This document shows, in pieces, positions 11,558 through 47,952 of a stretch of DNA of 49,546 nt; the first letter of the stretch is position 1; each line of letters begins with the position of its first letter. The translations under genes were made by a program, and so were the position numbers. The notes beneath the pieces are model-generated. The model was not told where the DNA came from. It was given only the letters and a program-made list of their open reading frames with translations, and searched no databases. This DNA is from a virus. Lineage: Duplodnaviria > Caudoviricetes. The stretch is taken from positions 1 through 49,546 of the IMG/VR virus record IMGVR_UViG_3300036940_000315; one strand, written 5' to 3'.

Positions 11558-11583
11558 ATATAGAATTATTAAAAGGAAAATAT

Positions 11584-12660: not shown

Positions 12661-12672
12661 AGAATAAAAAGA

Positions 12673-13516: not shown

Positions 13517-13545
13517 AAAATATAAAGATGATAAAATAAAAAAAT

Positions 13546-15307: not shown

Positions 15308-15324
15308 ATAAAAAACCTTTTAAA

Positions 15325-15664
15325 ATGATGAAGAAACAAAATAAAAATACTTTTGAAAATTTTTTTAAAAAACCAGAAAATAAAAAAACAGATGAAGAAA
15401 AAAAATTAGAATTTGATATATGAAAATATGAAATAGTAAAATATTGAAGAAATTATCATTTATCATTCAGGAAAAATAATTATGAATAATCAATTATTAA
15501 CATTTCGACAATGAAAATCATTAATTAATCAAAATGATTTAAAAGCCATTTTTGATGACTTAAGAAAGAAAAGATATTTTAAATTAGATTATAATTTTGA
15601 AAATTATTTATATGATGTATATGTTAATTATATTGATGAAATAAAAAAGAAAGTATTTAAATAA
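15325..15664 (+). CDS. two short hypothetical proteins (15325-15489, 15482-15664; TGA=Trp)
   Basis: Overlapping ATG-started frames that tile the gap when TGA=W. Confidence 0.4.
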
Positions 15665-15667
15665 ATA

Positions 15668-16417
15668 ATGAAATATAACATATTTACTTTGTTTGATTCT
15701 GGATATATTAAATTTGCAAGATTATTTTTTAATTCATTTTATAAAACAAATAATATAGATAATATAGAAAATATTTATGTTTATAATCCAACCTTAAAAG
15801 AAGAATATAAAAAATATTTGTCTAAATTTAAAAAAATAGTTTATATTAATGATTATGATAAGAAATCGGTTTTAAAAGAAAATAAATGAACAGAAAATAT
15901 TATACAAAAAACTCATGTTTTAAAACAATTATTAGAAGAAAAAAATCCTTATCCTCTAATAATGATAGATATTGATTGTATGTTTTTAAGTGATATTAGT
16001 GATTTAATAGATAATAAATTTGATATGCAATTTTGTTGTAGAAAATGAAATAAACAAAAACCATTAATAGCAAGTTTTGTTATAATAAATAATAGTAATT
16101 TTTTAGATTTTTTAGAATTATGAATTAAAAAAATCGATGTTACAGAAGGAAAAATAAAAGAAACTCCTGCTATGTGTAAAATATATAAAGAAAATAAAGA
16201 TAAATTTAATATTGGTTATATTAATTATAATATAGTTTCTGCAACAACGGATAAAGAAATAAATGATACAACCAGAATAATTCATTGCAAAGGCAGTGAC
16301 CCAAAAAGAAATAGTCCAGAAACAAGATTAAAAAAATTACATAAAATTAAAAAGATTCCAAATATAAAAAAATTATCAGAAAAATATATTGAGGTTACTA
16401 AATGTATAGCGTCATAA
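15668..16417 (+). CDS. nucleotide-diphospho-sugar transferase (GT-A; TGA=Trp)
   Basis: MIDIDC DxD motif, IASF, IIHCKG; joins two in-frame track ORFs. Confidence 0.7.
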
Positions 16418-17493
16418 GTGCTAATAGAAGTCCTAAAAAAGCAAATAAAAATTGAAGAATATTTGAACAAAAAAATTTAAAAAATTATTTTGGTTCTATT
16501 TTAAATGTAAATGGAGAAGATGGTTTTAGTGTAATAGAGGCATATAAAAAATATAAAAACACAATAAAATATATTAGATGATATCCTGATCCAGAAAAAA
16601 TGAATGGTTCTGAATATAAAGGTATGTTAATTCAATCAAAACAAATTGGAAATATACCTTATATTACAAATTCACCAGAAGGATTTTTAACCGTACAAAA
16701 TAAAGACGAAGCATTTAGAATATGAAAAGAAAATAATATTTATTGTCCTAATTATTTTGCATATAAAGATGAAAAAGATTTTTATATTCAAAATGAAAAA
16801 TATAATATTAAGCCACCATTTTTATTAAGAGTAAATAATGGGGTTGGTGGCTATAATACTTTTATCGTTAGAGATAACAAATATTTATCAAAATCTTTAA
16901 AACAATTAGATAAAGAATTTAAAAATTATAATAAACCAAATCAAAGAATTAAAACTAAAAAATTATGTGTTCAATTAATTAATTCTATAGATAAAGAAAA
17001 GAATGTAAATGTATCATATAGAATACATGTTGCTGGAAATAAAGTAATTTCTGGTTATGCAAGAGTAGTTCCAAGTAAAGAATGATGTGCTATTACTGCT
17101 GGTAAATTTAATATAAATCAAATTGATAATTGAGTTTATTTTAATAAAAAATGTGAAAAATTAATATATGAGAAAGAAAAAGAAATTTGTAAAGCAGTTC
17201 GTGTATTAAAATTAAATCATCAAGGTGTAGATATATTAATTGATGAAAATAATAATATATGTTTTTTAGAAGTACAACCAACTTATTCTACTGGTTATCC
17301 AATAAAAATGGGTAAATATTGCCCACCATATTATAATCCATATGATAAAAATCTTGTTAATTTTCTTAAAGAAAATGAATATTGATTAAAAAAAGAAATA
17401 CCAACATATTATAAAAATTGATTAAATAAAGATAATCATTTTAAACAAGTATATAAACATTTAAAGGAATATATTGATAATGTTTGGACCTAA
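16402..17493 (+). CDS. ATP-grasp (RimK-like) ligase (TGA=Trp)
   Basis: NKDE, PFLLRVNNGVGG, YRIHVAG, GVDILID..ICFLEVQ. Confidence 0.8.
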
Positions 17494-18334
17494 TACATAT
17501 GTTAAAACTAAAGTAAATATAAAATATTCACATAGAGATGATAAATTTTTACAATTATATCAAAAGGTTTCAGAAAAATTTAAAAAAAAATTTAATTTAA
17601 ATGATTATGAAATTATTTTTATTCCTGGAAGTGGAACTGTTGGAATGGAATCAATTATTTTTTCATTAAGAGGAAATATAAATGTAACTGGATACGATGG
17701 AGAATTTAAAGAAAGATGAAGACAATTAGTTAACTATTATTATAAAATTGGTTATGATAATAATCTTTATTGTAGATTAGAAACATCTAAAAGTAAATCC
17801 TTTTCTTTTCCTAAAAAAGGTGGAATAATTGATTGTATAAGTTCTTTTCCATTTTATGATATTGATAATGCAGATATATTTGTTACCAGCACAAATAAAT
17901 TATTAGGTTCTTTAGTAGGATTATCTATTATTGGAATAAAAAAAGATTTTATTAAAAATTTAATTCCTTCATCTAATGTATCATATTTAAATTTAAATAG
18001 ATATCTTAATTATAATTCAATAAATCAAACTCCAACAACTACTCCTACTTATATATTTGAACATCTTAATAAAATATTAGATAATTTTAATATAAAAAAA
18101 TTAAAAAATAAAATTAAAAAAAATTGCCAATTAATATATAATACGATTAATAATGAAAAAGCATTTATTGGAGAAATAATTTGTCCAGTATTAACAATCA
18201 AAAAAGAATATATTAATAAACAATTAGCAAAAAAATGACAATTATATGGTATAAATAAAGATAGTGATTATTATCAAATTTTTACATATTCTTGTCCAGA
18301 TAAATATTATAAACAATTTTGTAAGGAGATTTAA
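17474..18334 (+). CDS. class V PLP aminotransferase (AEP-transaminase/serine-pyruvate-like; TGA=Trp)
   Basis: MFGPN, SHR, GSGTVGMES, ETS, DCISSF, STNK, QTPTT. Confidence 0.8.
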
Positions 18335-18816
18335 TGACAACATTATTTTGTGATGTAGATAATACAATCAATAATCATTTTGAAAGAATTCAGCGATGAA
18401 CTAAAAATGGTAAATGTAATTGAAAAAAAGCCTTTTCATATAAAGAAATTATGAAAGATAAAGTATTACCGGGTTCAATAGAAGTAATAGAAAAATTATC
18501 AACAAAATATAAAATTGTATTTTTAACAGCAAGAAATTTTGGTCATGCTTATAAAGTAACAAAAGATTGATTAGATGAAAAAGGTTTTATTTATGAAAAA
18601 ATTATAGTAGTTAAAAATTCAAAAGAAAAAATAAAATATATTAAAAAAGAAAAAGATTGTTTACTTATAGATGATTTATCAAGAAAACACGAAACTAATC
18701 CGCCATATACTATTTTATATGATGATGTAATTGATAAATTAAATAGATTAAAAATCAATTATGAAATATTTGATGGGGATTGAAATAAAATATTAAAAAA
18801 ATATCTTGTTTTTTAA
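18334..18816 (+). CDS. HAD-family phosphatase/nucleotidase (TGA=Trp)
   Basis: FCDVDNTI, FLTAR, T..WL, LLIDD. Confidence 0.8.
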
Positions 18817-18869
18817 TAAAAAAATTTTTATATTATATATGTAAACAAAGTTAAAAAAAAGAAGTAAAA

Positions 18870-19271
18870 ATGAATAAAATATTAAATTTTGTAAAAGTTA
18901 AAGAGACTGAATTTCAAAGATTTTATAAATTATCAGAACCTGTAGACAAAGTACCAAATAAAAATTATAATTGGGAAGAAGAAAAGAAATATAACCTTTT
19001 ACGATTAAAAGATGAATTTAAAAAATATTATCCAGAATTGATTGAATATGTAGTTGTTTCCGATGCGCATACACATATAGAAAGATTAGTTTTTCTTGGA
19101 ATACCAATTAATGAAGAAAAAACAGATTTTGGTTGTTTGTGTGGTTTTCAATTAGATGGTGATAATACAATGTTGATAGAAGGTGGAGATTTAAATAAAG
19201 TATATCCCGATAATTATTATTTACAAAGATTAGCAGAAGTAAATAATTATGAATTTGGATTTATTAAATAA
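18870..19271 (+). CDS. hypothetical protein
   Basis: 133-aa ORF behind its own sigma70-like promoter (18806-18834). Confidence 0.65.
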   Translation: MNKILNFVKVKETEFQRFYKLSEPVDKVPNKNYNWEEEKKYNLLRLKDEFKKYYPELIEYVVVSDAHTHIERLVFLGIPINEEKTDFGCLCGFQLDGDNTMLIEGGDLNKVYPDNYYLQRLAEVNNYEFGFIK

Positions 19272-19293
19272 TTAAAAATAAAAAAATTAACAT

Positions 19294-19482
19294 ATGAAAA
19301 AAGAAAAAATATATTATTATAGATGTAAAAGATGTGGTAAAATTATATGATTTAATAAAAAACCAAAATTTGAAAAAAATTATACTTGTCAATCTATAAT
19401 GTTTTCCAGAATGAATGGATTATGTGAAGGAGAATATGAATCTATAACAAAAGAGGAATATATTAATGAAACTAAAAAATAA
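19294..19482 (+). CDS. small zinc-ribbon protein (TGA=Trp)
   Basis: YRCKRCG...C...CEG. Confidence 0.45.
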
Positions 19483-20476
19483 ATATGCAATTGGATGTCA
19501 TATAATGTTTTATGAAATTGAAATGATTTCTGAATATATAAATTCATGTTTATTAATGGCTGAAAATGTAGAAAATAAAGAAAATTTATTATTTCATTTT
19601 ACATTTAATAGATCAGAATATTTTGAAAAAATAGATTCTTCTAAAATTTCTAAACAGAATTTAATATCTAAATTTACTGATGAAATGATAAAAATTAAAA
19701 AAGCCGGATTTAAAGTTAAATATAATATTAAAACAAATGATTATCCAATCTATAATATACCTTCTTATAGAAGAGATTTAAATTATAACTATTGTTTAGA
19801 TTATGATTATATTTTATGGGGCGAATCTGATTGTATGTGGGCTAAATCTACATTAGAAGATATTGAAAATATTAGTGAATATTGTAAACAACAAAAAATA
19901 CCTAAACATGTAATAACATTCTCTTATAGAAAAATGTGGGATGATTCTTGGCTTCCTGTTGAACATATAAATTTTAAAAATGTTAAATTTCAAAGGGATG
20001 AAAAATGGCAAGCAACAGCAATAGAAAGTCCTAAATCATATATGGATTATGATACTATGAATAGAATAAATGAAGAAAGTAGAAAAGAACATGGTTTATT
20101 GATTAATATTTTAAAAGAACCTAAATTTGATGGATCCTGTCTTATTATTTCTTCTGAATTAATTAAATCTGGAATTAATATTCCTCATTCTTTATTATTA
20201 TGTAGCGAGGATGAAAGTTTTTCTATGTTATGTAAAAAGATATTAGGAGATAATTTTAGACAAGTTGCTATCCAGAATGTGCTTCGGGTGCATAATCGAC
20301 GACATCCAAAAAAACGGAATTATATTTTAAATGAAGAAAATCCTAAAGGTTTCTGTAATCTAAAGGGTCGTTGGTGGAAAGTATTAGAAGATATGAGTAA
20401 AGAAAATTCTTATAAATTATATCATCAATTTAAATTTAATACTTATGAAGATTTTAAAAAGGAATTAAATAAATAA
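19466..20476 (+). CDS. putative glycosyltransferase (GT-A-like); all Trp encoded by TGG
   Basis: RRDLNY, WGESD, DGSC, EDE, VHNRRHPKKR; position within the glycan cluster. Confidence 0.6.
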   Translation: MKLKNKYAIGCHIMFYEIEMISEYINSCLLMAENVENKENLLFHFTFNRSEYFEKIDSSKISKQNLISKFTDEMIKIKKAGFKVKYNIKTNDYPIYNIPSYRRDLNYNYCLDYDYILWGESDCMWAKSTLEDIENISEYCKQQKIPKHVITFSYRKMWDDSWLPVEHINFKNVKFQRDEKWQATAIESPKSYMDYDTMNRINEESRKEHGLLINILKEPKFDGSCLIISSELIKSGINIPHSLLLCSEDESFSMLCKKILGDNFRQVAIQNVLRVHNRRHPKKRNYILNEENPKGFCNLKGRWWKVLEDMSKENSYKLYHQFKFNTYEDFKKELNK

Positions 20477-21426
20477 TGAACTATAAAATAACATTCTTTT
20501 CAGAAAACGGGTTTGAAGGAAAAGTACCAAGAAATCATCCTAATATGCGAACTGAATATGCTTGAATGTCATCATTAAATGCTGATCATTATAATATTTA
20601 TAATATTCCCAAAAATCTAAATTATGATATTGGAATTATAATTTATCCTAAAAATGTAAAACAACAAATAAATTATAATAATTTATATAATAGTAGTAAA
20701 AAAATAGGAATTATGCAAGAAGGTCCTAATTGATATTGGGAATCATTAGAAATAAATGATCAAATTGAATATTATAATAGTTTATCTACAGTTGATTTTA
20801 TTTTATGTCATAATGAAATAGATAAAAAATATTTTAAAGGATTATTGTTAGATAGTAAACCAGTATATATTTTACCTTCTTTAATTATTGAAAATTTAGT
20901 AAAAAATATAAATACAAAAAAAGAAAATAAAACAATTATAGGTGGAAATTTAACTGATTGATATGGTGGATTTCCTTCATATGTTGTTGCCAGTAATTTT
21001 GGGAATTTAATTTATGTCCCACAAATGGGTAGAATGAAAAAAGAAGAATTAAATATTAATGAAATAAATCATTTACCGTATATGAATTGAATTGAATGAA
21101 TGAAAACGTTATCTATTTTTAAATTTGCAGTTCATATGATGCCCACAATAGCGGCTGGAACCTTCACATTAAATTGTGCCTATTTTGGAATTCCTTGTAT
21201 AGGGTATTTTGAGTTAGACACTCAAAGATTATGTCATACAAATACCTCTGTAAATAAAAGTGATATAAAATCAGCAAGTGAAATAGCGATTAAATTAAAA
21301 AATGATGAAAATTTTTACAATGAATGTTCTAAAAATTGTAAAATAAATTTCGACAAATTTTATTCAGAAAAAGTATTTTTAGAAAAGATGACCAAAGTTT
21401 TTGATGAAATTTTAAAAAAATTTTAA
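20476..21426 (+). CDS. putative GT-B glycosyltransferase (TGA=Trp)
   Basis: NMRTEYAW, MQEGP, AAGTFTLNCAYFGIPCIG, C-terminal FYSEK. Confidence 0.7.
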
Positions 21427-31560: not shown

Positions 31561-32001
31561 ATGCCAATTAGAAAACATTATACTGGAAGTTTAGATAATA
31601 ATATACTAAATCAAAAAGAACTTAGAGAACAAGGTATAAGTATTGAATATCCTTTTGGAAAATCAAATAAACCATTTTCATATACATATAATACATTAGA
31701 AACAGCAAAAAGTAAAATAAAAATGTTATTTGATTCTAAAAAAGGTGAAAGATTGATGAATCCAGAAGTAGGAATGGCTTTAGATAAATATCAATTTGAA
31801 CCTATTAATGAAGCAACTAAATTAGCAATAAAAAAAGAAATATCTGATAATATAAAAAAATATGTTCCTGAAGTTTTTATTATTAAAATGAATATTGATA
31901 TAAATGATAATAATAAAGATAGAAATATTATTTCAGTTAGTATTCAATTTAGTTTAAAAAATGAAGTAAATATTTCTGATAATATTAATTTAGAAATTTA
32001 G
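31561..32001 (+). CDS. baseplate wedge protein, GPW/gp25 family
   Basis: GISIEYPF, KKGERLMNPEVG..L..YQFE, I..YVP.V. Confidence 0.9.
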   Translation: MPIRKHYTGSLDNNILNQKELREQGISIEYPFGKSNKPFSYTYNTLETAKSKIKMLFDSKKGERLMNPEVGMALDKYQFEPINEATKLAIKKEISDNIKKYVPEVFIIKMNIDINDNNKDRNIISVSIQFSLKNEVNISDNINLEI

Positions 32002-32061
32002 ATTATTTATTATTTACTTATTTTTTATTACTTACATAATTATTAATCATGTTTGTTCAAT

Positions 32062-32370
32062 TTAATCGGCAAATTTCCATATATTTCCTTCCCATTCATT
32101 TTTATTATTTAGTGTATATACTACTCCATTATCGCCAAGTCCTAATATCCTGCCCTGTCATGTTTCGTTATTTTCAGTTACAATTATTTGCACTATCTTA
32201 GGTTGCCGTTGAATATTTGATGGAGACGAACTGCTTATTCTTTTTAGCAATATATCATACCACTCTTTTTCATAGTTTTTACTTTTACTATTGCACAATT
32301 CGTACAGGGCTTCTTCAATACTCCCATCTTTATGTGGGTATAAAAAACTTACTTTTTCATCATCATACAT
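32062..32370 (-). CDS. cassette-junction-spanning hypothetical protein (one TGA=Trp)
   Basis: GAGG RBS; reads through a half-site (SSSSPSNIQRQ); continues WQGRILGLGDNG.. past the TGA. Confidence 0.6.
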
Positions 32371-32429
32371 TTTTTACCTCTACTTTCTGAGCGCAGTCGC
32401 TCACGCAGCCATTATATCGTGGTTCATCT

Positions 32430-32657
32430 CTATTTTATCCATTCTTCTTTTTCTGCACATTTTGGACATATCCATACACCATCTTCATCTGGAGGGCAAT
32501 ATTTTATGTGATTTGTATAATGCCATCCTTCTGACTGTGCGTGTGCGTATGAAAAATATATTTCAACGTTCTCGTCTTCTTTTTTTATACAGTCTCGGCA
32601 CGAACACTGTATCGTTTCTTTGTGGTTAGAAAAATTTATTATTGCTATTTTTTTCAT
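32430..32657 (-). CDS. Cys-rich cassette protein
   Basis: GAGG RBS before MKKIAII; CSCRDC ... CPKC. Confidence 0.65.
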   Translation of the reverse strand: MKKIAIINFSNHKETIQCSCRDCIKKEDENVEIYFSYAHAQSEGWHYTNHIKYCPPDEDGVWICPKCAEKEEWIK

Positions 32658-32741
32658 TTTACAAATCCTCTTTATTTCTGTTTTAACGTCAAAAACGATA
32701 TAATAACTGGATGGAGTCAGAACGGCTACAGCCATTGCTTT

Positions 32742-32929
32742 TTACCACCGATTTGTATTTTTACAGTTATTTATTGCTTCTTTTAGATCATCTGCTACTG
32801 CGGTACACTGTTTTCCATCTATTTCTATTACCACCATTTTTTCATCGTTCCAGTGATTATGTACTCTCATATTTGTTTTTTTTTTTTCGGATTATCATAG
32901 TTTGTTACTTCACATGTTATTTTTATCAT
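32742..32929 (-). pseudogene. small protein frameshifted at an A12 tract
   Basis: MIKITCEVTNYDNPK.. then, in a shifted frame, NMRVHNHWNDEKMVVIEIDG...NTNRW*. Confidence 0.6.
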
Positions 32930-33024
32930 TTTTATTCCTTTCGTGGTTATTTACCGCCGTCGCTCATCCTTGTTCATTAGCCGAACACCCTGACGCATTC
33001 TCATGCGTCAGTGTTTTGCTCCGG

Positions 33025-34020
33025 CTACGCAGACGTCCTGTCTGCTTGGTTTATTTGTTTATACTTGTTGTTATAATCAATACATACGTCAAGGCAATTT
33101 TTTCTACATATTGGGTCTTTATATGTATTTAGTTTTTCAAGATATTTTTTTCTTTCTTCCCTCATATTTTCAGATACTACTCCAATAGGCTTACATCCCT
33201 CTCGCATTTTAATTACACATGGATAATGATATTTTCCTTTAATTATAGTATCGTCTATCATTAACCCGCATTTGTGACTATCCATCTTTGTTATTCCACG
33301 TACATTCCTTCCAATTTTGAAATTATTTATTCTATACTTTAAAATTGGATGTTTATTTAATATTTTTTTATCAATATTTAGGTTTTTAAAAATTGAAAAA
33401 TCATTCCATTGTGCTGCTGAAATTATACGTATATCAGAAACACCAAGATTGCTTGCAAACAATATAGAATCTTTCATTTCACTTGAATTTTGCTTGTCGA
33501 AAACCATTCCTACCGTTACATAAGTTAATTTTGACAATTCCCTTATATTAGACACAACCTTTTCCCAAGAACCAATTACGCCTCCAGACATCATATCCCC
33601 AATGGAAGAGCAGCAAGCATCAAGTGAAATTGAATAATCATTAACGCCAAGTTTAATCAAATCTTTGTATAATCCAATATCCGAATAACCATTGGTTGAT
33701 ATTGCAATATGTTCAATTTCAGAACAAACTTCTTTTGTGTATCTGATGATTTCTTTTATTCCTTTATGTACAGTTGGCTCGCCACCAGAAAACCTTACAT
33801 TTTTCACATTTTGTAAAGCCCAAACATCAATAGACTTCTTTACTTCATTTAAAGGCATATCGCCTTTTTTACCATCAATATCAGTTCCCCTGCAATATGG
33901 GCAATTAAAATTACATCTTGAAGTAATAATCATTTCGTTGCGCCATAGCGGTGAGTTTACACATGCGTTTTTTGCCCTAAAATCTTCTAATGTGTAAAAT
34001 CCTATATCTTCCAATTTCAT
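33025..34020 (-). CDS. radical SAM protein (MoaA-like fold)
   Basis: CNFNCPYC, FSGGEPT, ISTNG, SISLD, C-terminal Cys cluster. Confidence 0.9.
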   Translation of the reverse strand: MKLEDIGFYTLEDFRAKNACVNSPLWRNEMIITSRCNFNCPYCRGTDIDGKKGDMPLNEVKKSIDVWALQNVKNVRFSGGEPTVHKGIKEIIRYTKEVCSEIEHIAISTNGYSDIGLYKDLIKLGVNDYSISLDACCSSIGDMMSGGVIGSWEKVVSNIRELSKLTYVTVGMVFDKQNSSEMKDSILFASNLGVSDIRIISAAQWNDFSIFKNLNIDKKILNKHPILKYRINNFKIGRNVRGITKMDSHKCGLMIDDTIIKGKYHYPCVIKMREGCKPIGVVSENMREERKKYLEKLNTYKDPICRKNCLDVCIDYNNKYKQINQADRTSA

Positions 34021-34110
34021 TTTTTTCTCCTCTTCTGATTATTTATTCATCACATTTTCAACTGTTTGCGCGCCTGCTAATAATCACATGGAGACGAACA
34101 CGCACCGTCA

Positions 34111-34326
34111 TTATCTGGACTCGCTTTGGTTTAATATTAGATTTTTAGATATGATTAATTCTTGTCCACAATCACACTTAAATCGTGTTATATTGTTTGA
34201 TTTTGACAAGGTGTTTTTCCAGGTCGTTTTACAATTTGGACATTGAAACTCACTCATATACCACACACTTACATTTTTATGCCATTTTACTATAGTTGAT
34301 TTTGCTCTTTTTGTTGGTTTCCTCAT
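34111..34326 (-). CDS. zinc-ribbon cassette protein
   Basis: AGGAG RBS before MRKPTK; CPNC ... CDCG. Confidence 0.65.
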   Translation of the reverse strand: MRKPTKRAKSTIVKWHKNVSVWYMSEFQCPNCKTTWKNTLSKSNNITRFKCDCGQELIISKNLILNQSESR

Positions 34327-34410
34327 AGTTTTCTCCTTTATTACTGGCTCGCCAAAGATAATAACTGTCTGCACCGCTAACGAGAGTACTCGTACGGTGA
34401 GACCTGTTCA

Positions 34411-34626
34411 TTATATGGATGGCTTATTATATTTTCTAAACATCCATACTGCGTATGATGGTTGTACATCATACTCCAAGTCACCCTTATCGCCTATTTT
34501 TACATTTTTTGGTTTAGCCCACCCACAAAGCAACTCACTCTCTGTTATACCTTCACCATGTTTTACCCTTACGAAATAATCTGTTATTTCAGTTACTTCA
34601 CAATTGTGTCTTACTTTTTTTATCAT
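34411..34626 (-). CDS. small OB-like cassette protein
   Basis: AGGAG RBS; stop lies in the TAATGA half-site. Confidence 0.6.
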   Translation of the reverse strand: MIKKVRHNCEVTEITDYFVRVKHGEGITESELLCGWAKPKNVKIGDKGDLEYDVQPSYAVWMFRKYNKPSI

Positions 34627-34763
34627 ATTTTGCTCCTACGTTTGACGCCACCCTACAATCTCACATGGATCGAACCGCTAAAGCGGTTCTTTTTTGCGAG
34701 TTGTGGCAAATTTTGTTGTTTTTTCATCTTTATTATTCTTTCAGCGGTCGCTCATGCTTGTCA

Positions 34764-34994
34764 TTAGGTGGACTTTATCACTCTTTCTTCTATTATGCGG
34801 ATTTTATCACCTTCATTCAAAATTTCATTATACCTTATCTCAGCATCCTCTATTGATTCAAAAACCCCATCTTCAAAAGTCATCCATTTTTTCCACGTTG
34901 TATCTTCAAAAAATTCCAATCGCCACCTAATAACTTCATGGATTGAACTGCTATTCTCGTCGATATTTTTATTGTTTTTTTCTTTATCACACAT
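34764..34994 (-). CDS. cassette-junction-spanning hypothetical protein
   Basis: AGGAG RBS inside the site loop; half-site translated as SSSIHEVIRW. Confidence 0.65.
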   Translation of the reverse strand: MCDKEKNNKNIDENSSSIHEVIRWRLEFFEDTTWKKWMTFEDGVFESIEDAEIRYNEILNEGDKIRIIEERVIKST

Positions 34995-35051
34995 TTTGAT
35001 TATCTCCTATTTATTGTTTTCATTATCACCGCAGTCACTCATGACTGCACA

Positions 35052-35399
35052 TTAGCCGAACTTATCTATATTTAATTCCAACCACATCCTATTATTTACA
35101 TCTATTTTTTGTGCTATTTTGTTTGCCATATATTCTCTATTATTTTTCTTATCAATAGGTATTTCACATTCAAAGCATAATTCACGAAGCACCTTTTTGT
35201 CTAAACCTTGTAATACTTTACTCCATTTAGTATGGTTTATCTGTAATCGTCGGCTAATACTAGATGGACTCGAACTGCTATGTTGATTTTCTATGATCTT
35301 ATCTTTACACAATTCTATACTTACATGATACCAGCATCCATCTTCCACACTATCCGTATTATATTTACAATCTTTATTTATGCATTTTTCATTACTCAT
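35052..35399 (-). CDS. cassette-junction-spanning hypothetical protein
   Basis: Cys-rich N-part + SSSSPSSISRR linker + C-part. Confidence 0.65.
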   Translation of the reverse strand: MSNEKCINKDCKYNTDSVEDGCWYHVSIELCKDKIIENQHSSSSPSSISRRLQINHTKWSKVLQGLDKKVLRELCFECEIPIDKKNNREYMANKIAQKIDVNNRMWLELNIDKFG

Positions 35400-35443
35400 T
35401 ATCTACATCTCTTTCTACAACCGCAGTCGGTCATCTTTGTTCA

Positions 35444-35806
35444 TTAGCCGAACAGTTCTTTTTCTATTGTTTTTATAAGTTTTTCAATTTTCGCATTGTG
35501 TTCATCCGCTCCGCAAGAACATTCATTTTCATCATAGTCGTCATTTGCACACCCATCTTCCGCTTTTGGGCAACTATACCACGAATCCACACAATAATAA
35601 TGTTCCCGCTTTGCTAATTTTGCTATTTCTTTTATAGCATCTATTGTTTGTCGGCTAATAACTGGATGCAACGATCCACTTGATTTTAGTGTATTGATAG
35701 CATCATTCATCGCTTTTACATATCCGTGATTGTAGGATGATTCGTTTTTATTCGGCATTTCGTGTTCTATTTTTAGTTTTTTGAATTTTCCTATTATTTT
35801 TTCCAT
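35444..35806 (-). CDS. cassette-junction-spanning hypothetical protein
   Basis: N-part + SSGSLHPVISR linker + Cys-rich C-part. Confidence 0.65.
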   Translation of the reverse strand: MEKIIGKFKKLKIEHEMPNKNESSYNHGYVKAMNDAINTLKSSGSLHPVISRQTIDAIKEIAKLAKREHYYCVDSWYSCPKAEDGCANDDYDENECSCGADEHNAKIEKLIKTIEKELFG

Positions 35807-35863
35807 GTTATTATTTCCTCTCTTTCGTTACGTGGTCACTGATCCATGATGCATTGATAGTCA

Positions 35864-36196
35864 CTATTCTTTCTCCCATTGAAGGCAACCAATTTCAGTT
35901 AATCTTAGATTTTCATCTGGAAACATAATGTCTATCTCTTTTCCGTGTTTATTACACATATTACCAATCTCTGCCATGCCAATCCACTCACGATATTTAC
36001 AATTGCTACAAGAGTGACTTTCAATAGTCGCCTGCACCGAACAATCATCCGTGGTTATTATATCAGAAATTGCTGCTGTAAAATTTTCTTGTGTTATTAC
36101 TTTTAATTTTCCTACCTCGGTTTCCGCTTCTAACGCATATTTTTCGAATAGTTCTTGTACATTCATATTTACCTCATTTTTTTTGTTTTCTTTCAT
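35864..36196 (-). CDS. cassette-junction-spanning hypothetical protein
   Basis: N-part + CSVQATIES linker + CSNCKY..C..C C-part. Confidence 0.6.
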   Translation of the reverse strand: MKENKKNEVNMNVQELFEKYALEAETEVGKLKVITQENFTAAISDIITTDDCSVQATIESHSCSNCKYREWIGMAEIGNMCNKHGKEIDIMFPDENLRLTEIGCLQWEKE

Positions 36197-36198
36197 CT

Positions 36199-36699
36199 TC
36201 AAATCTCTTTTTCAAATTTTAAATCTCCATGACATTTACAACAATAATATAACCTTGGATTTTTTTTCATTTTATTATGTTTTTTAATTGATAAGTAATG
36301 TTTTTGACAATTACATTTATAAACATATTTATAAACTCTTGTATCTGGAATATTTACTTTATCTTCTACTCTTTTAGGTGATGCTCCTAATTCAATCATT
36401 ATCATTTGCCAGGTTCTTCCATGACTTAAATTATTATATAATTGTTTATCAACTGCATGGGCGATTTCATGTAAACAAGTATTTTTAAAAATTTCTGGAT
36501 ATTTTTTAACATACCATAAATTTATTTTGATAACAAAAGTTTCTTCAATATTATTAAAAATACATTTACCTAAAGATCTTCCTTTTAAATTGGTATCTAA
36601 ATAAATTTTATTTGTATTAAATTTAGGAAAATGAGTTTTAGTTTTTTCTAAGTATTTTTGAAATGTTAAATGAACTTTAAATTTTTCTTCTGTTGTCAT
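36199..36699 (-). CDS. SprT-like zinc metalloprotease
   Basis: HEIAH, HGRTWQMIM..LG, YVYKCNC, CCKC. Confidence 0.9.
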   Translation of the reverse strand: MTTEEKFKVHLTFQKYLEKTKTHFPKFNTNKIYLDTNLKGRSLGKCIFNNIEETFVIKINLWYVKKYPEIFKNTCLHEIAHAVDKQLYNNLSHGRTWQMIMIELGASPKRVEDKVNIPDTRVYKYVYKCNCQKHYLSIKKHNKMKKNPRLYYCCKCHGDLKFEKEI

Positions 36700-36740
36700 A
36701 ATTTAAAACCTCCTTTTTAATTAACCTTATTTACATATAT

Positions 36741-36768
36741 AATATAAGGAATAAATATATAATATCAA
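36741..36768 (-). promoter_or_regulatory. sigma70-like promoter pointing into sprT and the cassette array
   Basis: AAAAGTTCT-TTGATA-N16-TATATT, followed by AGGAGG RBS. Confidence 0.7.
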
Positions 36769-36866
36769 AGAACTTTTTAATAAAATTTTAATTTTTTTTC
36801 TTTCATGTTAAAAAACTATAAAAAAATATTTATAATTGAAATTAAAATAAAAGGAATTAATATATA

Positions 36867-38795
36867 ATGAATAGTAAAAAGAATGTAAATTATTTAGGTA
36901 GAGATTATCAATCATTAAAATCAAATTTACAAACCTTTATAAAAAGTTATTATCCAAATCAATATCAAGATTTTTCAGAAGCATCTCCTGGTGAAATGAT
37001 GATTGAATTAGCATCTTATGTTGGAGACGTTCTTGGTTTTCATATGGATAAAAATTTACAAGAATTATTTTCATCAAATCCTAAACAAAGAAGAAACGCT
37101 ATTGAATTAGCAAAAAGATTAGGTTATAAACCTAAAGCGGCTGTCTCGTCAAATACAAATATTGATATTTATTTAACTGTTCCTGCTACTGGTAGTATAA
37201 ATCAAAAAGTTCCTAATCCTAATTATTTACCAATTATTAAAAAAGAAACAAAATTAAGATCTAATACAAATCCTTCTGTAATATTTGAATTAGTAGAAGA
37301 TTTAAATTTTAAAGTAGATTTAGGAGATTCAAAAATAGAAAAAACAATTGCAGAAGTTGATAATAATAATTTTCCAACAAAATTTTTATTAAAAAAATCT
37401 GTACCTGTTATATCCGGTGAAACTAAATCTTTTACAGTTTCTATAAATGAACCAGAAAAATATCTTTCAATTGAATTACCAAGTGATACAGTAAGTGAAA
37501 TTATTGAAGTAAAAGATGCCGATGATAATATTTGATATGAAGTGGATTCATTAGCACAAGATACAATATTTTTTGATGAAGAAAATTTATTACAAAATGA
37601 TCCAGAAAGTTCTAATGATACATCTACTGTACCATATAATTTAAAATTAAAAAGAGTACCAAAAAGATTTACAGTTAATATAAATGAAGATAATTTAACA
37701 TATATTAATTTTGGTTCTGGTGTTTCAAATTCTAATGATGAAGAATTAATACCAAATCCATCTAATGTTGGTTCACCTATTTTAAATTCAAGTAATAAAT
37801 ATGATTATGCTTTAGATCCTGAAAATTTTTTAAAAACAAAAACCTTTGGAGAAGCACCAGGTAATACTACATTAACAATTAAATATAGAAATAGCGGAGG
37901 TATAAAAACTAATGTACCTGCTAATTCAATTAATACAGTAAATAATGCAGTATTTACATGACCAATAAATGAAAATTTATTAAATTCAAATACAATTTCA
38001 GAAATTAAATCCAGTATTGCTTGTGATAATCCACAACCAGCAACTGGGGGTAAAGGAATTCAAACAAATAAAGAAATTGTTGAAATGTCATTTGCTGAAT
38101 TAAAATCTCAAAAAAGATGTATTACTAAAGAAGATTATATTGTAAGAACTTATTCATTACCTTCTAAATTTGGTAATATTGCAAAAGTATATATTGAAAA
38201 AGATGATATTGTAAAATCTCAATTATCAAATGAAACTCAAATAGCACAAGAAAATAATAATATTACAAGAAATCCATTTGGATTAAATTTATATGTATTA
38301 GCATACAATAACAATAATAATTTAATTAATGCTTCTACTGCATTAAAGAAAAATTTAAAAAATTATTTATCTCAGTATAGAATGTTAACCGATACAATAA
38401 ATATATTAGATGGAAATATTATTAATATAAAAGTAAATTTTGAAATTATAGTTAATAAAAATAAAAATAAAAATGAAGTATTATTAAAATGTATTAAAAA
38501 TTTACAAGATTATTTTAATATAAATAATTGAAATTTTAATCAACCAATTATATATTCTGATATTGCTAAAATATTAACAGATGTAAATGGAGTAAAATCA
38601 ATACCTATTGATTATGATATTAATTCTAATATGAGAAGAGGTATTTGAATTGAATGTCAATATAGTGGAAATTATTCAAATAAATATGTAGATATAAATG
38701 CTTTAACAAAAAATGGAATTATTTATCCGCCTAAAGAAATTAGTATATTTGAGGTGAAATTTCCAAAAACTGATATTGTAGGATATGCTTTATAA
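36867..38795 (+). CDS. baseplate wedge subunit (T4 gp6/baseplate J-like; TGA=Trp)
   Basis: YLGRDY..LK, DFSEASPG.M.IE..SYVGDVL.F, WYEVDSLAQD, INFGSG, GG, QKRCITKEDY; late motif at 36825-36840. Confidence 0.9.
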
Positions 38796-39452: not shown

Positions 39453-40265
39453 TTAATTTTCTTCTTCTATATCATTTTCATTATTATCTATTTGTTTACT
39501 TTCAAATTCCATAAAAGACCAATTTTTTAATTTTAAAGGAATCATATTAAAAATATTTTCAATTCTTAATACTATACCTTCTGCTGGTACTTCAAAATTA
39601 TTCATTTCACATTTAGAATCGTTTAAATTAAAATTATCATTTTTTTCTAATTTTTCAATAAATTTTAATGTCCAATTTTTATCATTAAAGTTTAAATTAA
39701 ATAAATTTTTTATTTTTCCATAATAATATAAAGGAGTATATTTTAAACCATATTTATTACAAAAATTTTCAATTGCTGGTCTATTTAATTCAGTAACTAA
39801 ACCATCTTCATTTGTAAATGTTATTTTATAAACATAAAATTCAGAAATTCCTGGTTCACATCCATAATGATAATTTTTTTGAATAAATTTATTATTAGAT
39901 AAATATCCAACAATTTCTCCATATAAAGTAAATCCTTTTGGAATAATATTTTTTAATTTATCAGCCCAGAGTTGCCAAATATTTTCTGAATAATAAGAAT
40001 TTTTATTAGGAAAAAATTTATTTTTTATAACTCGTCTGGATGAATATATACAATCATATTCTTTTTCTTGTATTTTAAAACCTAATTTTTTTAATATTTT
40101 TTCAAAAATATTTAATTTTCTTTTTACTAAAATATTACTAAACACTGCTGATGTATTGTGTATTAAAATGCCATTCGCAAAAAAATTATGAGTAGAATTT
40201 ATTGTTAAATCATATCTATCTTGTTTTAATATTTTTTTGATTGATTTTATTTTTGAATATTTCAT
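39453..40265 (-). CDS. split intein C-part + RNA ligase C-terminal part
   Basis: MKYSKIKSIKKI..RYDLTINSTHNFFANGILIHN|TS; then SRR, LYGEIVG, FYVY, PLYY.G, EGIVLR, LKLK. Confidence 0.9.
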   Translation of the reverse strand: MKYSKIKSIKKILKQDRYDLTINSTHNFFANGILIHNTSAVFSNILVKRKLNIFEKILKKLGFKIQEKEYDCIYSSRRVIKNKFFPNKNSYYSENIWQLWADKLKNIIPKGFTLYGEIVGYLSNNKFIQKNYHYGCEPGISEFYVYKITFTNEDGLVTELNRPAIENFCNKYGLKYTPLYYYGKIKNLFNLNFNDKNWTLKFIEKLEKNDNFNLNDSKCEMNNFEVPAEGIVLRIENIFNMIPLKLKNWSFMEFESKQIDNNENDIEEEN

Positions 40266-40320: not shown

Positions 40321-41430
40321 TTATTTTTTACAATATTCTAATATTTTTTTGATTGTATCATTTTTATTATTTTTTAATTCATTTTCTCAAATAACTAATA
40401 CTTCATAATTATTTTCTTTTGCAAAATTTATTTTTTGTTCATCTTTTTTTCATTTATTTTTTACTAATATCTCACCGTTCGAATTTGCTAATATTCTATC
40501 ATTTGATTTATAAAATTTAGGATTGCCATGTCAATAATCGCCATTTATCTCAATTATTTTATTCGAATTTTTTAAAAGTATATCATATGCATAATATCTA
40601 GTTTTATTTCTTTTTATTTTAAATTCAATAAAAAATTCAATATTATTATTTTTTAAAATATTAAATACTTGTTTATTTAAATTACTAATTATTCCTTGTC
40701 CTCTTACTGAATAACCATGTTTTCAATATTCTTTACCATATCTAGTAATTAACGTATTAATAATTTTTTCTTTAACTTCTTTTCTTTGAAAAACTGTAGT
40801 TATTCCTTCTTCTTCTAATAGTCGTTTTTGTCATTTTATTCTTGAAGGATGATTTTTACAAAAATTATGTTCTGCTCCATATATTTTTAAATTAGTTTTT
40901 CTTATTCTTTGTTTTACTTTTTCATTATTTAATGATTTTTTTATTGAAATATCAATATTTAATTCATTGAATAATTTATAAAAATTAGCAATTGAAAATG
41001 TTGTATATTCCTTTTGTAATTCCAATAAACTTCCTTTTTCATTATATAATTTTTCTAATTTATTTTTATTTAAATTATTTTCTGTTAAAAAATTATATTT
41101 ATTTTCACATCAAATATAATGTTTTTTTAATGCCGAAACAACTGGCTGTTTAATAAAAATTTTATTACAGTACTTACAAGTTGTTTTTGTACATTTAATT
41201 TTATATCTTCTTAAAATTGATTTAAAAAATGATTCATCAATTGGATATTTTTTTAATAAATTTTTTCATCCATTTTCATTATTTATTTCATTTTTTAATT
41301 TTTCAATTGATAAATTATATTTTTTAAAATATTGTTTTAAATTATTACAAAATTTAATTTGTTTTGAATTTATTAATCCATTTTTATTATAATGAGATGT
41401 TTTACAAAAATTACATATTTCATATTTCAT
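40321..41430 (-). CDS. free-standing Vsr/EDxHD-like homing endonuclease (TGA=Trp)
   Basis: YAYDI...IIEINGDYWHGNP...WKKDEQK...YEVLVIWE; T.L..YG repeats; late motif at 41460-41475. Confidence 0.85.
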
Positions 41431-41516
41431 ATAATTAATTCCTTATAAAAAATAATAATTTCAACAATAAATATTTCTATAAAGAAAAAATTACATAGAA
41501 TTGTGTAATTTTTTAA

Positions 41517-42419
41517 TTAGTCAAATAATAAAACATCATCTACTTTCAAATCTTTTACTTCTCTATAACAATTTAAATCTGGTAACCATACAGGATTATT
41601 TGATGTTATCTTTATTTTTTTACCATTTTCTAATTCGATTTCATACCATTCACCATGATTTTTCTTGAAATAATAATTATCAATTGGAACAAAAATAATT
41701 TCATTAGTATTTACATCAAATGCTTTTATTCTACAATCTAATTTATTATCAACTATTTCTTTTATAGTTTTATTACCATATTCTAAAGTTTCTATAATTG
41801 TATCTTCAGAAACACAACCATGAATTTTTTTTGAGATAGATATTATAGATTCTGGTGTTAACAAATGTAAATTTCTTTTTAAATGTTTTGTATCTGGATG
41901 TAAATGAAATTGTCCTTCTATTAATTTAAAAATATTTTTAAATTTATTTTTTTGTTTTCCTTGTCCAGTACCACCAGTTTTATTTTGTTTTACAATATAT
42001 TTTTCACATATTGGAATGCCATTTAATTCATCAAATTCATCACCTAATTTAGGTAAAGACTTTTCATTTGAAGCATAAATCAATGATTCGATTGGCATAA
42101 AAAGTCCTTCACTTTTATGTCCTTGAAATTTTTGTAGTCTTAGTCTTCCATTATCTTCAAAATAACCTTTTTTATTTACGTTAACATTCAATTTTTTATG
42201 TCTATATAAATTATTATTTGAAAGATAACTATTTGATAATTTACATTCTACTGGGAAAAATACCCCAATATCACCTATTTTTGCATTTTTTTGAACAATT
42301 ACATGAGAACCTAAAACAATAGCGCCGGCTATATTATCACAATTTTCTAAAGGGATAATATTATCTATTTTTGCAATAGTAGCACAATAATTTGGATTTT
42401 TTAGTTTTTTTAATTTCAT
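41517..42419 (-). CDS. RNA ligase N-terminal part + split intein N-part
   Basis: OB-like N-domain (I.NCDNI, GDIGVFF, SEGL), KKIHG|CVSEDTII..., intein block B-like ITSNNPVW, VKDLKVDD. Confidence 0.9.
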   Translation of the reverse strand: MKLKKLKNPNYCATIAKIDNIIPLENCDNIAGAIVLGSHVIVQKNAKIGDIGVFFPVECKLSNSYLSNNNLYRHKKLNVNVNKKGYFEDNGRLRLQKFQGHKSEGLFMPIESLIYASNEKSLPKLGDEFDELNGIPICEKYIVKQNKTGGTGQGKQKNKFKNIFKLIEGQFHLHPDTKHLKRNLHLLTPESIISISKKIHGCVSEDTIIETLEYGNKTIKEIVDNKLDCRIKAFDVNTNEIIFVPIDNYYFKKNHGEWYEIELENGKKIKITSNNPVWLPDLNCYREVKDLKVDDVLLFD

Positions 42420-43806: not shown

Positions 43807-44070
43807 TTAAAATCTTTCTGCCGCTTTCCTATTCAAGAAAAAATGAATTCCAGTTGAACATTCTTTAATATTTTCATCATAATCTTCTATGAAAACAGTT
43901 TTTCCAACTTCATATATAAAATTACTATCCCAATTTGATATTCCAGTTTTATATTGTTTTGTTTTTTCAATATTTTCAATTTTCAAAACTTTTGCTTTGT
44001 TAGTTCTACATTTATCATGATTTTCACTTTGAAAAGTTTGATTTTTATCTAATTGTAATTCCGCAATTAA
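43807..44070 (-). pseudogene. DUF5758-like domain lacking a start codon, out of frame with the upstream repeat gene
   Basis: KCRTNKAKVL..., F.YEVG..V, D.....ECSTGIHFF..R..A. Confidence 0.65.
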
Positions 44071-44567
44071 ATTATTTTTGAATTGTTATAAGCCCGAACT
44101 GTTGAACTGTCAAAAGCCTCAACTTTTGAATTATCAAAAACCAGAACTGTTGAATTATCAAAAGCCCGAACTTTTGAATTATCAAAAACCAGAACTGTTG
44201 AACTGTCAAAAGCCTCAATTTTTGAATTGTTATAAGCCCGAACTGTTGAACTGTCAAAAGCCTCAACTTTTGAATTATCACAGGCCCGAACTGTTGAATT
44301 ATCATAAGCCCGAACTTTTGAATTATCAAAAACCAGAACTGTTGAATTATGATAAGCCTCAACTGTTGAATTATCACAGGCCCGAACTGTTGAATTATCA
44401 TAAGCCCGAACTGTTGAACTGTCAAAAGCCTCAACTGTTGAATTTTCATAAACAATGAATTTTTTTATATCACCATAAAACAATATAATATAAGATTCCT
44501 TTTCTAAAATTTTAAAATACTGACTGTTTTCTACTGTAATGTTTAAATTCTCATTTTTGTAATTCAT
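44067..44567 (-). CDS. octapeptide-repeat (beta-helix-like) protein
   Basis: About 15 repeats of (D/N)S(T/K)V(R/E/L)(A/V)(Y/F/C)(D/N); promoter 44604-44632 and AGGAG RBS. Confidence 0.8.
   Translation of the reverse strand: MNYKNENLNITVENSQYFKILEKESYIILFYGDIKKFIVYENSTVEAFDSSTVRAYDNSTVRACDNSTVEAYHNSTVLVFDNSKVRAYDNSTVRACDNSKVEAFDSSTVRAYNNSKIEAFDSSTVLVFDNSKVRAFDNSTVLVFDNSKVEAFDSSTVRAYNNSKII
44075..44445. repeat. 24-bp coding tandem repeat
   Basis: Units such as GAATTATCATAAGCCCGAACTGTT repeated with variants. Confidence 0.9.
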
Positions 44568-44656
44568 TTCTAACTCCTTTTTAATTATCTTATTTACATG
44601 TATAATATAAGGAAGTTTATAATAAAAAACAAGAACTTTTTATTAAAATTTTAATT

Positions 44657-44998
44657 TTATTCAAAATTTCTTTCAGCATCTTTTTGAATTTCTGCATCTA
44701 TGTCTGAATATAAATCTTTATAATCATCTAAATGTTTTTCTGATTCTTCTATTTCGTTTTCAATTTGCAATAAATCTTTTTCCATTTGTTCTAATTCTTC
44801 AAAGGTTTCTACATGAAGAGGAAAATCTGTTACAAAATTTTCAAATAATTCAATTAATTCTTTTCTAAAATTATTTAAATCTTCTTTATTCATAAAATTC
44901 ATTTCGCCTTCTAATTTCCAATCTTCTCCAAATATACCAACACTTGGATCTCCATAATGATAAATATTCCAGCCAGTTACTATAATTTCATTATCCAT
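44657..44998 (-). CDS. acidic hypothetical protein
   Basis: AGGAG RBS before MDNEIIV; GDPSVGIFG motif. Confidence 0.65.
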   Translation of the reverse strand: MDNEIIVTGWNIYHYGDPSVGIFGEDWKLEGEMNFMNKEDLNNFRKELIELFENFVTDFPLHVETFEELEQMEKDLLQIENEIEESEKHLDDYKDLYSDIDAEIQKDAERNFE

Positions 44999-47101: not shown

Positions 47102-47620
47102 CTTTAATTCTCCTTTTTCAATTATTTTTAATTTTATTTATAATATAAGAAACATTTTATTAAAAAACAAGAACTTTTTATTAAAAATTTTAATTAAACA
47201 AAAAAAAATAAAAAAAATCTATGTTTTTGGAAAATTCAAATATATTTAAATATAGAATATATGTTATATATTTAGATATCTACTATATACATTATATATA
47301 TTAAAAAATTTATTAGATAATTTATTACATGGATAAAAAAAATAAAAAAAGTTCTTGGATTTTAAAAAATAAATTTTTATATTAGTAATGTTAATTGAAA
47401 AATGAAATAATGTAATATTTTAATCACTTCCTCCTTATTGATTAACTTACGTTAAAAAAAATCAAATTTTATAAAGTTTTATTTGGATAGTTTTTTATTT
47501 GATTTTCTATCCAATATTTAAAAGTTAAAAATAAAATAAAAAGGTTCTTGGATTTTAAATTAAAATTTTATATATTATAGATTATTAGTTATAAATTGTT
47601 TTTTGAAAATAGAAAAAATT

Positions 47621-47952
47621 AAAATTAATGACAAAGAAAGTTCCTATAAATTTTTAGCAACAAAAAAAGTACTTTCCGTTATTAAATTTTATTTTGTGAT
47701 AAAAATAGTTCCTATTTCGAATACTTGCCAGTTAGGCAAACCATATACTATTTATCACAAATTTATGGAAGATGTAGCTCAATTGGTAGAGCACCCGGAT
47801 AAAATTACCTTTCGTTGTTATAGATAGACAAAAAAGGTTCCTATATATTGAAAAAGGACCAGGGGGTTAGAGGTTCAATTCCTCTCATCTTCCCTAATAG
47901 GTAAAAGAAGTTCCTATAAAATTACACATATAATAAAATACTTCTCACTTAT
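47621..47952 (+). ncRNA. array of four covarying stem-bulge-stem RNA units with invariant GTTCCTAT
   Basis: Units at 47621-47690, 47693-47761, 47807-47844 (permuted) and 47897-47952; compensatory stem changes; downstream of promoter 47548-47576. Confidence 0.8.
47767..47893 (+). ncRNA. tRNA-like RNA with ~60-nt structured insert replacing the anticodon loop
   Basis: GGAAGATG/CATCTTCC acceptor, GCTC-AATTGGTA-GAGC D arm, CCCGG/CCAGG anticodon stem, AGAGG-TTCAATT-CCTCT T arm. Confidence 0.8.

What the first reader, a model, noticed from the sequence alone, without database searches (positions are those of the whole stretch)
34764..36196. ORFs start inside the recombination-site loop and read through the crossover: built-in protein domain shuffling
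Seen: the two arms of several sites are separated by ~60-230 nt containing an RBS, an ATG and an N-terminal coding segment. The frame runs through the right arm, giving related linkers (CSVQATIES, SSGSLHPVISR, SSSSPSSISRR, SSSIHEVIRW, and SSSSPSNIQRQ at ~32210), and on into the next cassette. All five cross the core in the same frame (core ATT = Ile), and several stop at the TAA of the next left arm. Inference: each cassette carries a C-terminal module plus the next gene's N-terminal module, so reordering cassettes would create new in-frame fusion proteins. Classical cassettes carry whole genes.
Basis: partly seen in the sequence, partly recalled or inferred. Interest (0 to 1): 0.86.

Follow-up and report, generated by a model that had tools for sequence, protein, structure and literature searches.

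The report
Phage cassettes that swap protein halves
In this large phage, five small genes start upstream of one arm of an integron-like DNA hairpin and read through it, and related sequences carry the same gene halves joined to other partners at that arm, so the array likely mixes protein parts as well as moving whole genes at the hairpin's other arm.

Summary
Observation largely confirmed; mechanism half right. The window is a fragment of an AT-rich, TGA-read-through myophage with a 4.2-kb array of attC-like sites (AAT/ATT cores) and no integrase in the fragment. Five of nine right arms are crossed by a gene in the Ile frame; four of these start in a loop, the fifth arm has no partner.

A related phage integron shows a precise 699-bp loss at that arm, so standard reordering would move whole genes.

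A front-8/back-7 join occurs in 2 of 6 runs laid, front 6 on a new back in 3 of 6, and three database proteins share one half with another partner at the linker. ORF1's halves are separate families: 77 N-only, 67 C-only and 1 both (itself) of 145 hits.

The enzyme, rates and expression are untested. New variant of phage attC arrays; not found in print in my searches.

The parts
32033..36200 (.). Cassette array, GC about 33% against about 20% in the phage, between the gp25 gene and the SprT-like gene
   Evidence: (CG 27/kb vs 0-5/kb)
35864..36166 (-). ORF9: leader module N9, linker CSVQATIES, body C9; first gene of the array in coding direction
   Evidence: N9 occurs on a Lar domain in P0185
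36019..36045 (+). Lone read-through arm A9 (R''-L''-like), no partner found
35653..35859 (+). Site 8 (arm A core 35657-35659, arm B core 35853-35855); loop holds RBS, ATG and N8; weak stem
   Evidence: p 0.31
35444..35806 (-). ORF8: N8, linker SSGSLHPVISR, Cys/His-rich body C8; stops in arm B7
35252..35449 (+). Site 7 (cores 35256-35258 and 35443-35445); best-formed site, three extra bases on arm A
   Evidence: p<0.004
35052..35399 (-). ORF7: N7, linker SSSSPSSISRR, body C7; stops in arm B6
   Evidence: C7 joined to N8 in runs X4 and X7
34925..35057 (+). Site 6 (cores 34929-34931 and 35051-35053); loop holds RBS, ATG and short N6
   Evidence: breaks at 34928 and 35053 in other runs
34764..34994 (-). 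ORF6: N6, linker SSSIHEVIRW, body C6; stops in arm B5
34653..34769 (+). Site 5, not read through
34411..34626 (-). Cassette gene with its own RBS and ATG
34356..34416 (+). Site 4, short classical-size attC-like site (61 nt)
34111..34326 (-). Cassette gene with its own start, zinc-ribbon-like (Pfam hits below cut-off); Ile frame also open into it
34075..34116 (+). Site 3, short and degenerate
33025..34020 (-). Radical SAM cassette gene with its own start
32698..32982 (+). Site 2; its long loop holds a whole small gene (about 32738-32929, minus strand, frameshifted in a poly-A run) that stops before the arm
32430..32657 (-). Cassette gene with its own RBS and ATG
32208..32417 (+). Site 1 (cores 32212-32214 and 32411-32413); loop holds domain N1
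32062..32370 (-). ORF1: domain N1, linker SSSSPSNIQRQ, domain C1; one TGA read as Trp; ends at lone arm B0
32040..32066 (+). Lone stop-codon arm B0 at the border with phage DNA; attI-like or insertion site (inferred)
   Evidence: analogous lone arm before intI in L006
36169..36699 (-). SprT-like protease gene upstream of the array, phage-like composition
36741..36768 (-). Promoter-like site within a repeated phage element; would drive SprT and the array (inferred)
   Evidence: (family D2)
31561..32001 (+). Baseplate wedge gp25 gene, flank
36867..38795 (+). Baseplate wedge subunit, flank, 4 in-frame TGA

Best explanation
This is a phage-borne array of attC-like cassettes whose genes lie on the strand predicted to be recombined, so each hairpin has two exchange points: the stop-codon arm, where an integron-type integrase would move whole genes, and the read-through arm, where gene fronts and backs are found re-paired in frame, likely by the same enzyme cutting the other strand. 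Shown: the anatomy, the frames, breakpoints at both arms in natural variants, and that ORF1's halves are independent protein families. Inferred: that the integrase is supplied in trans (host, or the unseen part of the phage), that it makes the swaps, and that the fusions are expressed from a phage promoter upstream of SprT. Back halves without a strong start of their own would depend on the loop for translation, which would favour loops and bodies that keep the Ile frame.
For: Geometry. G at position 16 of arm A in 8 of 8 paired sites. Extra bases on arm A in 6 of 8 automatic alignments; site 1 by eye, site 3 degenerate. At site 7 they read T, A and C on the coding strand with 6 paired bases between first and last, as in PMC5027507. 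The coding-strand duplex is lower in energy in 7 of 8 (one tie), and the six loops over 60 nt are 65-74% purine on it. Stop-arm exchange. L006 vs L007 differ by a precise 699-bp unit between stop-arm AAC triplets beside a true IntI. A 367-nt AAC-to-AAC duplicate sits in L109/L110. Site 6 with the same new body has different neighbours beyond arm B in X6 (break at 35053) and X4 (break at 35062). Read-through-arm exchange. Join 35248 to 35650 in X4 and X7; the 11 shared letters include the core. Loop 6 sits on a new body from 34928 in X4, X6 and X7. P0042 (N1, 94%), P0041 (C1, 65%) and P0185 (N9, 69%) carry other partners at the linker. A 417-nt repeat in L117-L119 ends at GTT+5. The orientation is general: of 64 paired GTT-type viral sites, 36 have an ORF ending on the bottom strand only, 4 on the top only, 9 both, 9 none, 6 had no room.
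Against: No integrase in the fragment, which is 25% complete. For IntI1, top-strand recombination is 1,000-10,000 times rarer (PMC5027507), yet in the runs laid the read-through arm shows 2 distinct events against 1-2 at the stop arm. Either strand choice is relaxed here or another process makes the swaps. The first extra base is C on the coding strand, not the usual G, and cores are AAT/ATT, not AAC/GTT. The contigs with swaps are shallow (depth 2.1-5.7) and most runs date from one year and habitat. In the three proteins, shared linker extends 2-3 residues past the Ile, so the break is not placed at A|TT. Other breaks fall at the stem/loop border (35835 in X3; 35279 and 35420 in X6), which neither crossover explains. 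Sites 3 and 8 fold no better than shuffles. Expression was not tested.
Confidence: 0.5

Rival explanations
1. Whole genes move at the stop-codon arm, but front/back swaps arise by short-homology recombination or slippage between similar arms, without an integrase cut at the read-through arm.
For: The N8/C7 join has 11 identical letters. Arms form a sequence family reused with other loops and bodies (X3 records 1-2, X6 records 7-8). Breaks also occur at stem ends. Linker identity runs past the Ile in P0042 and P0185. Slippage and illegitimate events at attC are a described source of fused cassettes (PMC8876359).
Against: The N8/C7 break is confined to the core box although arms 7 and 8 differ inside. 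The loop-6 swap breaks at the edge of the core (34928). Shared sites in other viral arrays end at GTT+4 to +10.
Confidence: 0.25
2. One reading: the regular crossover is at the Ile core, each cassette is a back half plus the next front half, and every reordering makes fusions.
For: Two distinct DNA events and three proteins with breaks at or just past the linker. A lone read-through arm with its own leader at the 5' end resembles attI1 with ORF-11. A G at position 16 lies on the plus strand, and the canonically oriented sites in L032 also carry an extra G on the coding strand's 5' arm (by eye).
Against: Extra bases lie on the read-through arm (rule). The L006/L007 excision and the L109/L110 duplicate are bounded at the stop arm. 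A break at 35053 in X6. In L006 the lone arm next to intI is the stop-type arm. The N9 leader has cassette-like composition, while the stop-type lone arm B0 borders phage DNA.
Confidence: 0.18
3. The swaps are assembly or library chimeras; the array is an ordinary inverted CALIN whose genes merely overlap their sites.
For: Low depth, contigs not raw reads, repeats at the junctions.
Against: The same two junctions appear in 2 and 3 runs of different coded studies. An 11-letter overlap is shorter than the 31-letter words these contigs are indexed by (word size for assembly recalled as 31). Three proteins from other collections show the same pattern.
Confidence: 0.05

Closest known systems
CALINs and integrons in phage genomes (Qi et al. 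2023, PMC9892861; read parts 1-3 of 7 and a term search)
   Same: attC clusters without an integrase in phages; small genes of unknown function; 5 of 6 tested phage sites recombined with IntI1.
   Different: The parts read describe no genes on the bottom strand, no starts inside the loop and no swaps of gene halves. Here cores are AAT/ATT and sites reach 285 nt. Supplements were not opened and may show gene orientation.
Integron attC sites and strand selection (Nivina et al. 2016, PMC5027507; read parts 1 and 3 of 7 and passages)
   Same: Core box, 5-nt spacer, extra bases at about 16, 20 and 23/24 on one arm, purine-rich and more stable recombined strand.
   Different: Genes are normally on the top strand and end at R''. 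Here they run the other way and begin in the loop. First extra base is C rather than G; sites exceed the 57-141 bp range.
gcuF1-blaOXA-28 fusion (Hocquet et al. 2012, PMC3375312; passages) and fused cassettes / ORF-11 (review PMC8876359; passages)
   Same: Reading frames that cross an att site and give a fusion protein or supply a translation start.
   Different: Single cases at the standard crossover or after attC loss; not an array in which loops encode domains and halves re-pair.
[quoted passage not shown] 2020, PMC7439510; passages)
   Same: An attC arm doubling as a protein linker is workable.
   Different: Engineered; the array here is natural, and only one arm is translated as the linker.
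Inverted phage integron in IMG/VR loci L006/L007
   Same: Genes on the bottom strand, starts in loops, read-through of the arm with extra bases, same C8 domain.
   Different: Has its own IntI, GTT cores, another reading frame through the core, and mostly short leader peptides in the loops.

Membership tests
attC site | Inverted core boxes with 5'-AAC-3' / GTTRRRY | tested here: not met
   All 18 arms have AAT/ATT instead; one base off. The gcuF1 site has a T at this place in R'' and still excises.
attC site | Imperfect hairpin with extra bases on one arm near positions 16, 20, 23/24 | tested here: met
   G16 in 8 of 8; extra bases on arm A in 6 of 8 automatic alignments; inner arms pair best with their own partner in 6 of 8.
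attC site | Length 57-141 bp | tested here: not met
   42, 61, 117, 133, 198, 207, 210 and 285 nt: 3 of 8 in range.
attC site | Recombined as a folded single strand by IntI | not testable with these tools
   Needs an assay; only natural breakpoints seen.
Gene cassette | Ends of each unit complementary (R''/R' from one cassette) | tested here: met
   Adjacent outer flanks are best or joint-best match for 6 of 9 bodies, with 6-7 of 7 letters for five of them. Does not tell which arm is cut.
Gene cassette | Whole gene on the top strand, ending at R'' | tested here: not met
   Genes lie on the predicted bottom strand; 4 start inside a loop.
Gene cassette | Mobility at core boundaries | tested here: met
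   Breaks at 35053, 34928 and 35248/35650 in other runs.
Complete integron | intI gene | tested here: inconclusive
   No TIGR02249 match in G000, which is 25% complete.
Complete integron | attI site | tested here: inconclusive
   Lone arm B0 is a candidate by position and by analogy to L006.
CALIN in a phage | Two or more attC-like sites, no adjacent intI, phage context | tested here: met
   8 paired sites between baseplate genes.
CALIN in a phage | Called by IntegronFinder or HattCI models | not testable with these tools
   Models not available; Rfam gave only a tRNA.

The most novel reading that the evidence does not exclude
Phages have turned attC arrays into a two-slot protein assembly kit: one integrase reaction reorders whole genes, a second at the opposite arm re-pairs front and back domains in a fixed frame, and both slots are loaded from one pool of phage micro-domains, which would also offer a route by which new cassettes are born.
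Probability: 0.35. Interest if true: 0.9.

Novelty: new variant of a known kind. Interest (0 to 1): 0.68.

Why it matters
Integron cassettes are taken to carry whole genes and to be cut on one strand only. Here natural variants break at both arms, and the loop encodes real domains. If an integrase does this, it is a natural version of what has so far been engineered (attC sites as protein linkers), and a site-specific source of the mosaic small proteins common in phages. It also makes an open question testable (recalled, not from a call): how attC sites get attached to new genes. The same domain occurs in the loop here and apparently in the body slot elsewhere. Practically, orientation must be read from the extra bases, not from the genes, or cassette boundaries in phages are drawn at the wrong arm.

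Tried and rejected
Searches for other AAT-type arrays found none. Viral contigs patterns gave 0 hits, 46 loci with no partner arm and 7 chance loci. The metagenome scan gave one chance locus; GTDB gave two. ORF8 as a single query found no viral locus. Baseplate relatives L001/L002 were used only for the TGA check; I did not scan them for arms. INPHARED: no match for P0003; only two records matching the radical SAM gene. The IntI query returned only its own two contigs in IMG/VR. Rctr41k (L032) has canonically oriented cassettes and is not a model for this array (by eye). Of the 26 viral loci with the C8 domain, arms were evident by eye in L006, L007 and L011, possibly L026; most sit in ordinary context. 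ORF7 has no homolog but itself; ORF6 was not searched. Pfam and PHROGs name none of the five read-through ORFs above cut-off; PDB profiles of N1 and C1 found nothing; Atlas hits were unnamed. Whole-site MFE folds mostly missed the arm pairing for long loops. The local partner search was underpowered. A mixed N/C alignment was wrong and was dropped. The N1 structure job never finished and the C1 job was not accepted, so there is no structure. Openness of the 30-letter loose ends in the Ile frame (4 of 4 new bodies, 2 of 2 new loops, read by hand) is weak: for the two I checked, the other frames were open too. No RNA holder listed. Joint 32654-34291 in X1 (side 22) was set aside as another organism or repeat. 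A universal fixed frame is rejected: in GTT-type viral sites 15 of 18 read-throughs use another frame.

Full report
Context. The window is the whole record G000, a virus fragment estimated 25% complete. Reading through TGA raises long-frame cover from 0.53 to 0.85. Two of four TGA codons in the baseplate gene align with Trp in L002 and one of four in L001, so code 4 is likely. Between a gp25 gene and an SprT-like gene lies a 4.2-kb island with 33% GC against about 20%. Its nine genes use TGG 24 times and TGA once, against 26 and 87 in 20 phage genes. The island is therefore foreign in origin and nearly code-neutral. No integron integrase is in the fragment.

Anatomy. On the plus strand the island alternates two arms. 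Arm A has core AAT, a 5-nt spacer and a stem; arm B has a stem, a spacer and core ATT. The order is a lone B0, eight A-loop-B sites of 42-285 nt, and a lone A9. Inner arms pair best with their own partner in 6 of 8 sites. The two ends of each body are complementary, best or joint-best in 6 of 9. All array genes are on the minus strand. Five of nine A arms (1, 6, 7, 8, 9) are crossed in the frame that makes the core an Ile codon, with an ATG 21-57 codons upstream and 50-71 codons downstream. Shuffled upstream stretches are all open with probability about 7e-7. In-frame start codons exist inside these bodies, but none near the core has a clear RBS (by eye). The other four bodies have their own RBS and ATG.

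Which arm is cut. In attC sites the extra bases lie on the arm opposite the recombined triplet (PMC5027507). Here they lie on arm A: G at position 16 in 8 of 8 sites, and gaps in arm B only in 6 of 8 automatic alignments, with site 1 readable by eye and site 3 degenerate. The coding strand pairs slightly better in 7 of 8 and its long loops are purine-rich, both marks of the bottom strand in that paper. So the coding strand is the predicted substrate, and the standard cut falls in arm B, on the stop codon. A standard cassette is then arm B, loop with start, arm A, body: a whole two-part gene.

A natural experiment agrees. Loci L006 and L007, found through the C8 domain, are identical except for a 699-bp methyltransferase unit bounded by the stop-arm AAC triplets. 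They carry a true IntI, with extra bases on the read-through arm. The orientation is common in viral contigs: of 64 paired GTT-type sites, an ORF ends at the site on the bottom strand only in 36, top only in 4, both in 9, neither in 9, and 6 lacked room. That scan stopped at 130 of about 170 stretches and the pattern came from L006. A 367-nt duplicate in one array runs AAC to AAC.

Halves nevertheless swap. Twelve DNA runs hold all or part of the array; I laid six. X4 and X7 each have a contig joining 35248 to 35650. The 401-nt skip equals the distance between cores A7 and A8, and the 11 shared letters include the core, so front 8 is in frame on back 7. X4, X6 and X7 carry loop 6 on the same new body, breaking at 34928, the letter after the core. 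That unit has different neighbours beyond arm B: X6 breaks at 35053, the end of the core, and X4 at 35062. Both arms are therefore breakpoints in one population. Other contigs reuse arms 7 and 8 with other loops and bodies, breaking at stem ends (X3 records 1-2, X6 records 7-8). These contigs are shallow (depth 2.1-8.2), and X1 showed no credible variant.

Proteins agree. Of 145 phmmer hits to ORF1, 77 match only the front, 67 only the back and 1, the window's own, both. P0042 has front 1 (94%) and the linker on another back; P0041 has another front and the linker on a back-1 homolog. P0185 has front 9 (69% over 52 residues) and the linker on a Lar domain. The 36 other hits to ORF8 all match its back domain behind varied fronts. 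Several front-1 homologs are preceded by peptides that look like translated arms, which suggests that this domain fills the body slot elsewhere; their DNA was not seen. In site 2 the loop holds a whole gene. In other viral arrays shared sites end at GTT+4 to +10, and one repeat starts at AAC and ends at GTT+5. Sharing of whole sites could also reflect site families, as in chromosomal integrons (recalled).

How it most likely works. An integron-type integrase supplied in trans would insert and excise whole genes at the stop arm, perhaps at the lone arm B0 (inferred from geometry and L006). A phage promoter upstream of SprT would transcribe the array (promoter counts are no higher than shuffles). 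Exchange at the read-through arm re-pairs fronts and backs (shown), likely by cuts on the other strand (inferred). For IntI1 that reaction is 1,000-10,000 times rarer, but my small counts do not show it rarer here. The C in place of G16 might relax strand choice (speculation), or short homology may do the work. The fixed frame is a property of this arm family, not of the class: 15 of 18 read-throughs at 65 GTT-type sites use another frame.

Comparison and novelty. It works like an attC array and meets the hairpin, end-complementarity and mobility tests. It fails the core sequence, length and gene-orientation tests, so I call it attC-like, a variant of phage CALINs (PMC9892861). Precedents for frames crossing att sites are single cases or engineered. 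Eight literature searches (listings only, except the six papers opened) showed no report of bottom-strand phage arrays with half swaps; the library lacks most subscription papers, and no supplements were opened. One preprint opened (10.1101/2022.09.11.507474, passages) did not bear on the question. Earlier notes of this scan describe the same pattern in eight other genomes. They are unchecked leads, one partly fell on later checking, and they make the feature recurrent rather than unique.

Verdict. Interest 0.68; new variant of a known kind.

Noticed in passing
window whole; 36867-38795: The phage reads through TGA, probably as Trp, while its cassettes almost avoid TGA (24 TGG, 1 TGA); the one TGA is in the cassette next to the lone arm B0.
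   Followed up: partly
L006:338-1036 and 3188-4189 (vs L007): A complete viral integron with genes on the bottom strand, co-directional with a downstream intI, caught with and without a methyltransferase cassette.
   Followed up: yes
window 32977-33045: A gene-less hairpin with inverted ends directly after arm B2, then a second small hairpin over the radical SAM stop; possibly an empty mini-cassette or decayed site, terminator-like on the plus strand.
   Followed up: no
window 32738-32929 (-): A whole small gene inside the loop of site 2, frameshifted in a poly-A run; real or an assembly error.
   Followed up: no
window 40321-42419 and 39453-40265 (-): RNA ligase gene split by intein-like segments around a DUF559/DUF7487 nuclease-like ORF; the three frames are separate ORFs.
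   Followed up: no
window 44004-44531 (-): Gene of 24-nt tandem repeats (8-residue units); the called ORF stops at 44067 while the repeat match runs on to 44004.
   Followed up: no
window 2343-21426: Long cluster of genes that look like glycosyltransferases and sialic-acid-pathway enzymes (judged by eye from translations, not scanned).
   Followed up: no
window 36727-36803, 44590-44666, 47128-47204, 18786-18854, 47335-47403: Repeated phage intergenic element with promoter-like boxes on both strands (families D2-D4).
   Followed up: partly
window 47768-47893: tRNA match of 126 nt, longer than the model, so it may hold an insert or intron.
   Followed up: no
L032:4680-10100 (KX853513): Virus Rctr41k carries an IntI relative with canonically oriented cassettes downstream on the same strand; annotated only as xerD.
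   Followed up: partly
L119:830-1246 and 2306-2721: Duplicated cassette within one viral array, with the following loop joined to two different bodies.
   Followed up: partly
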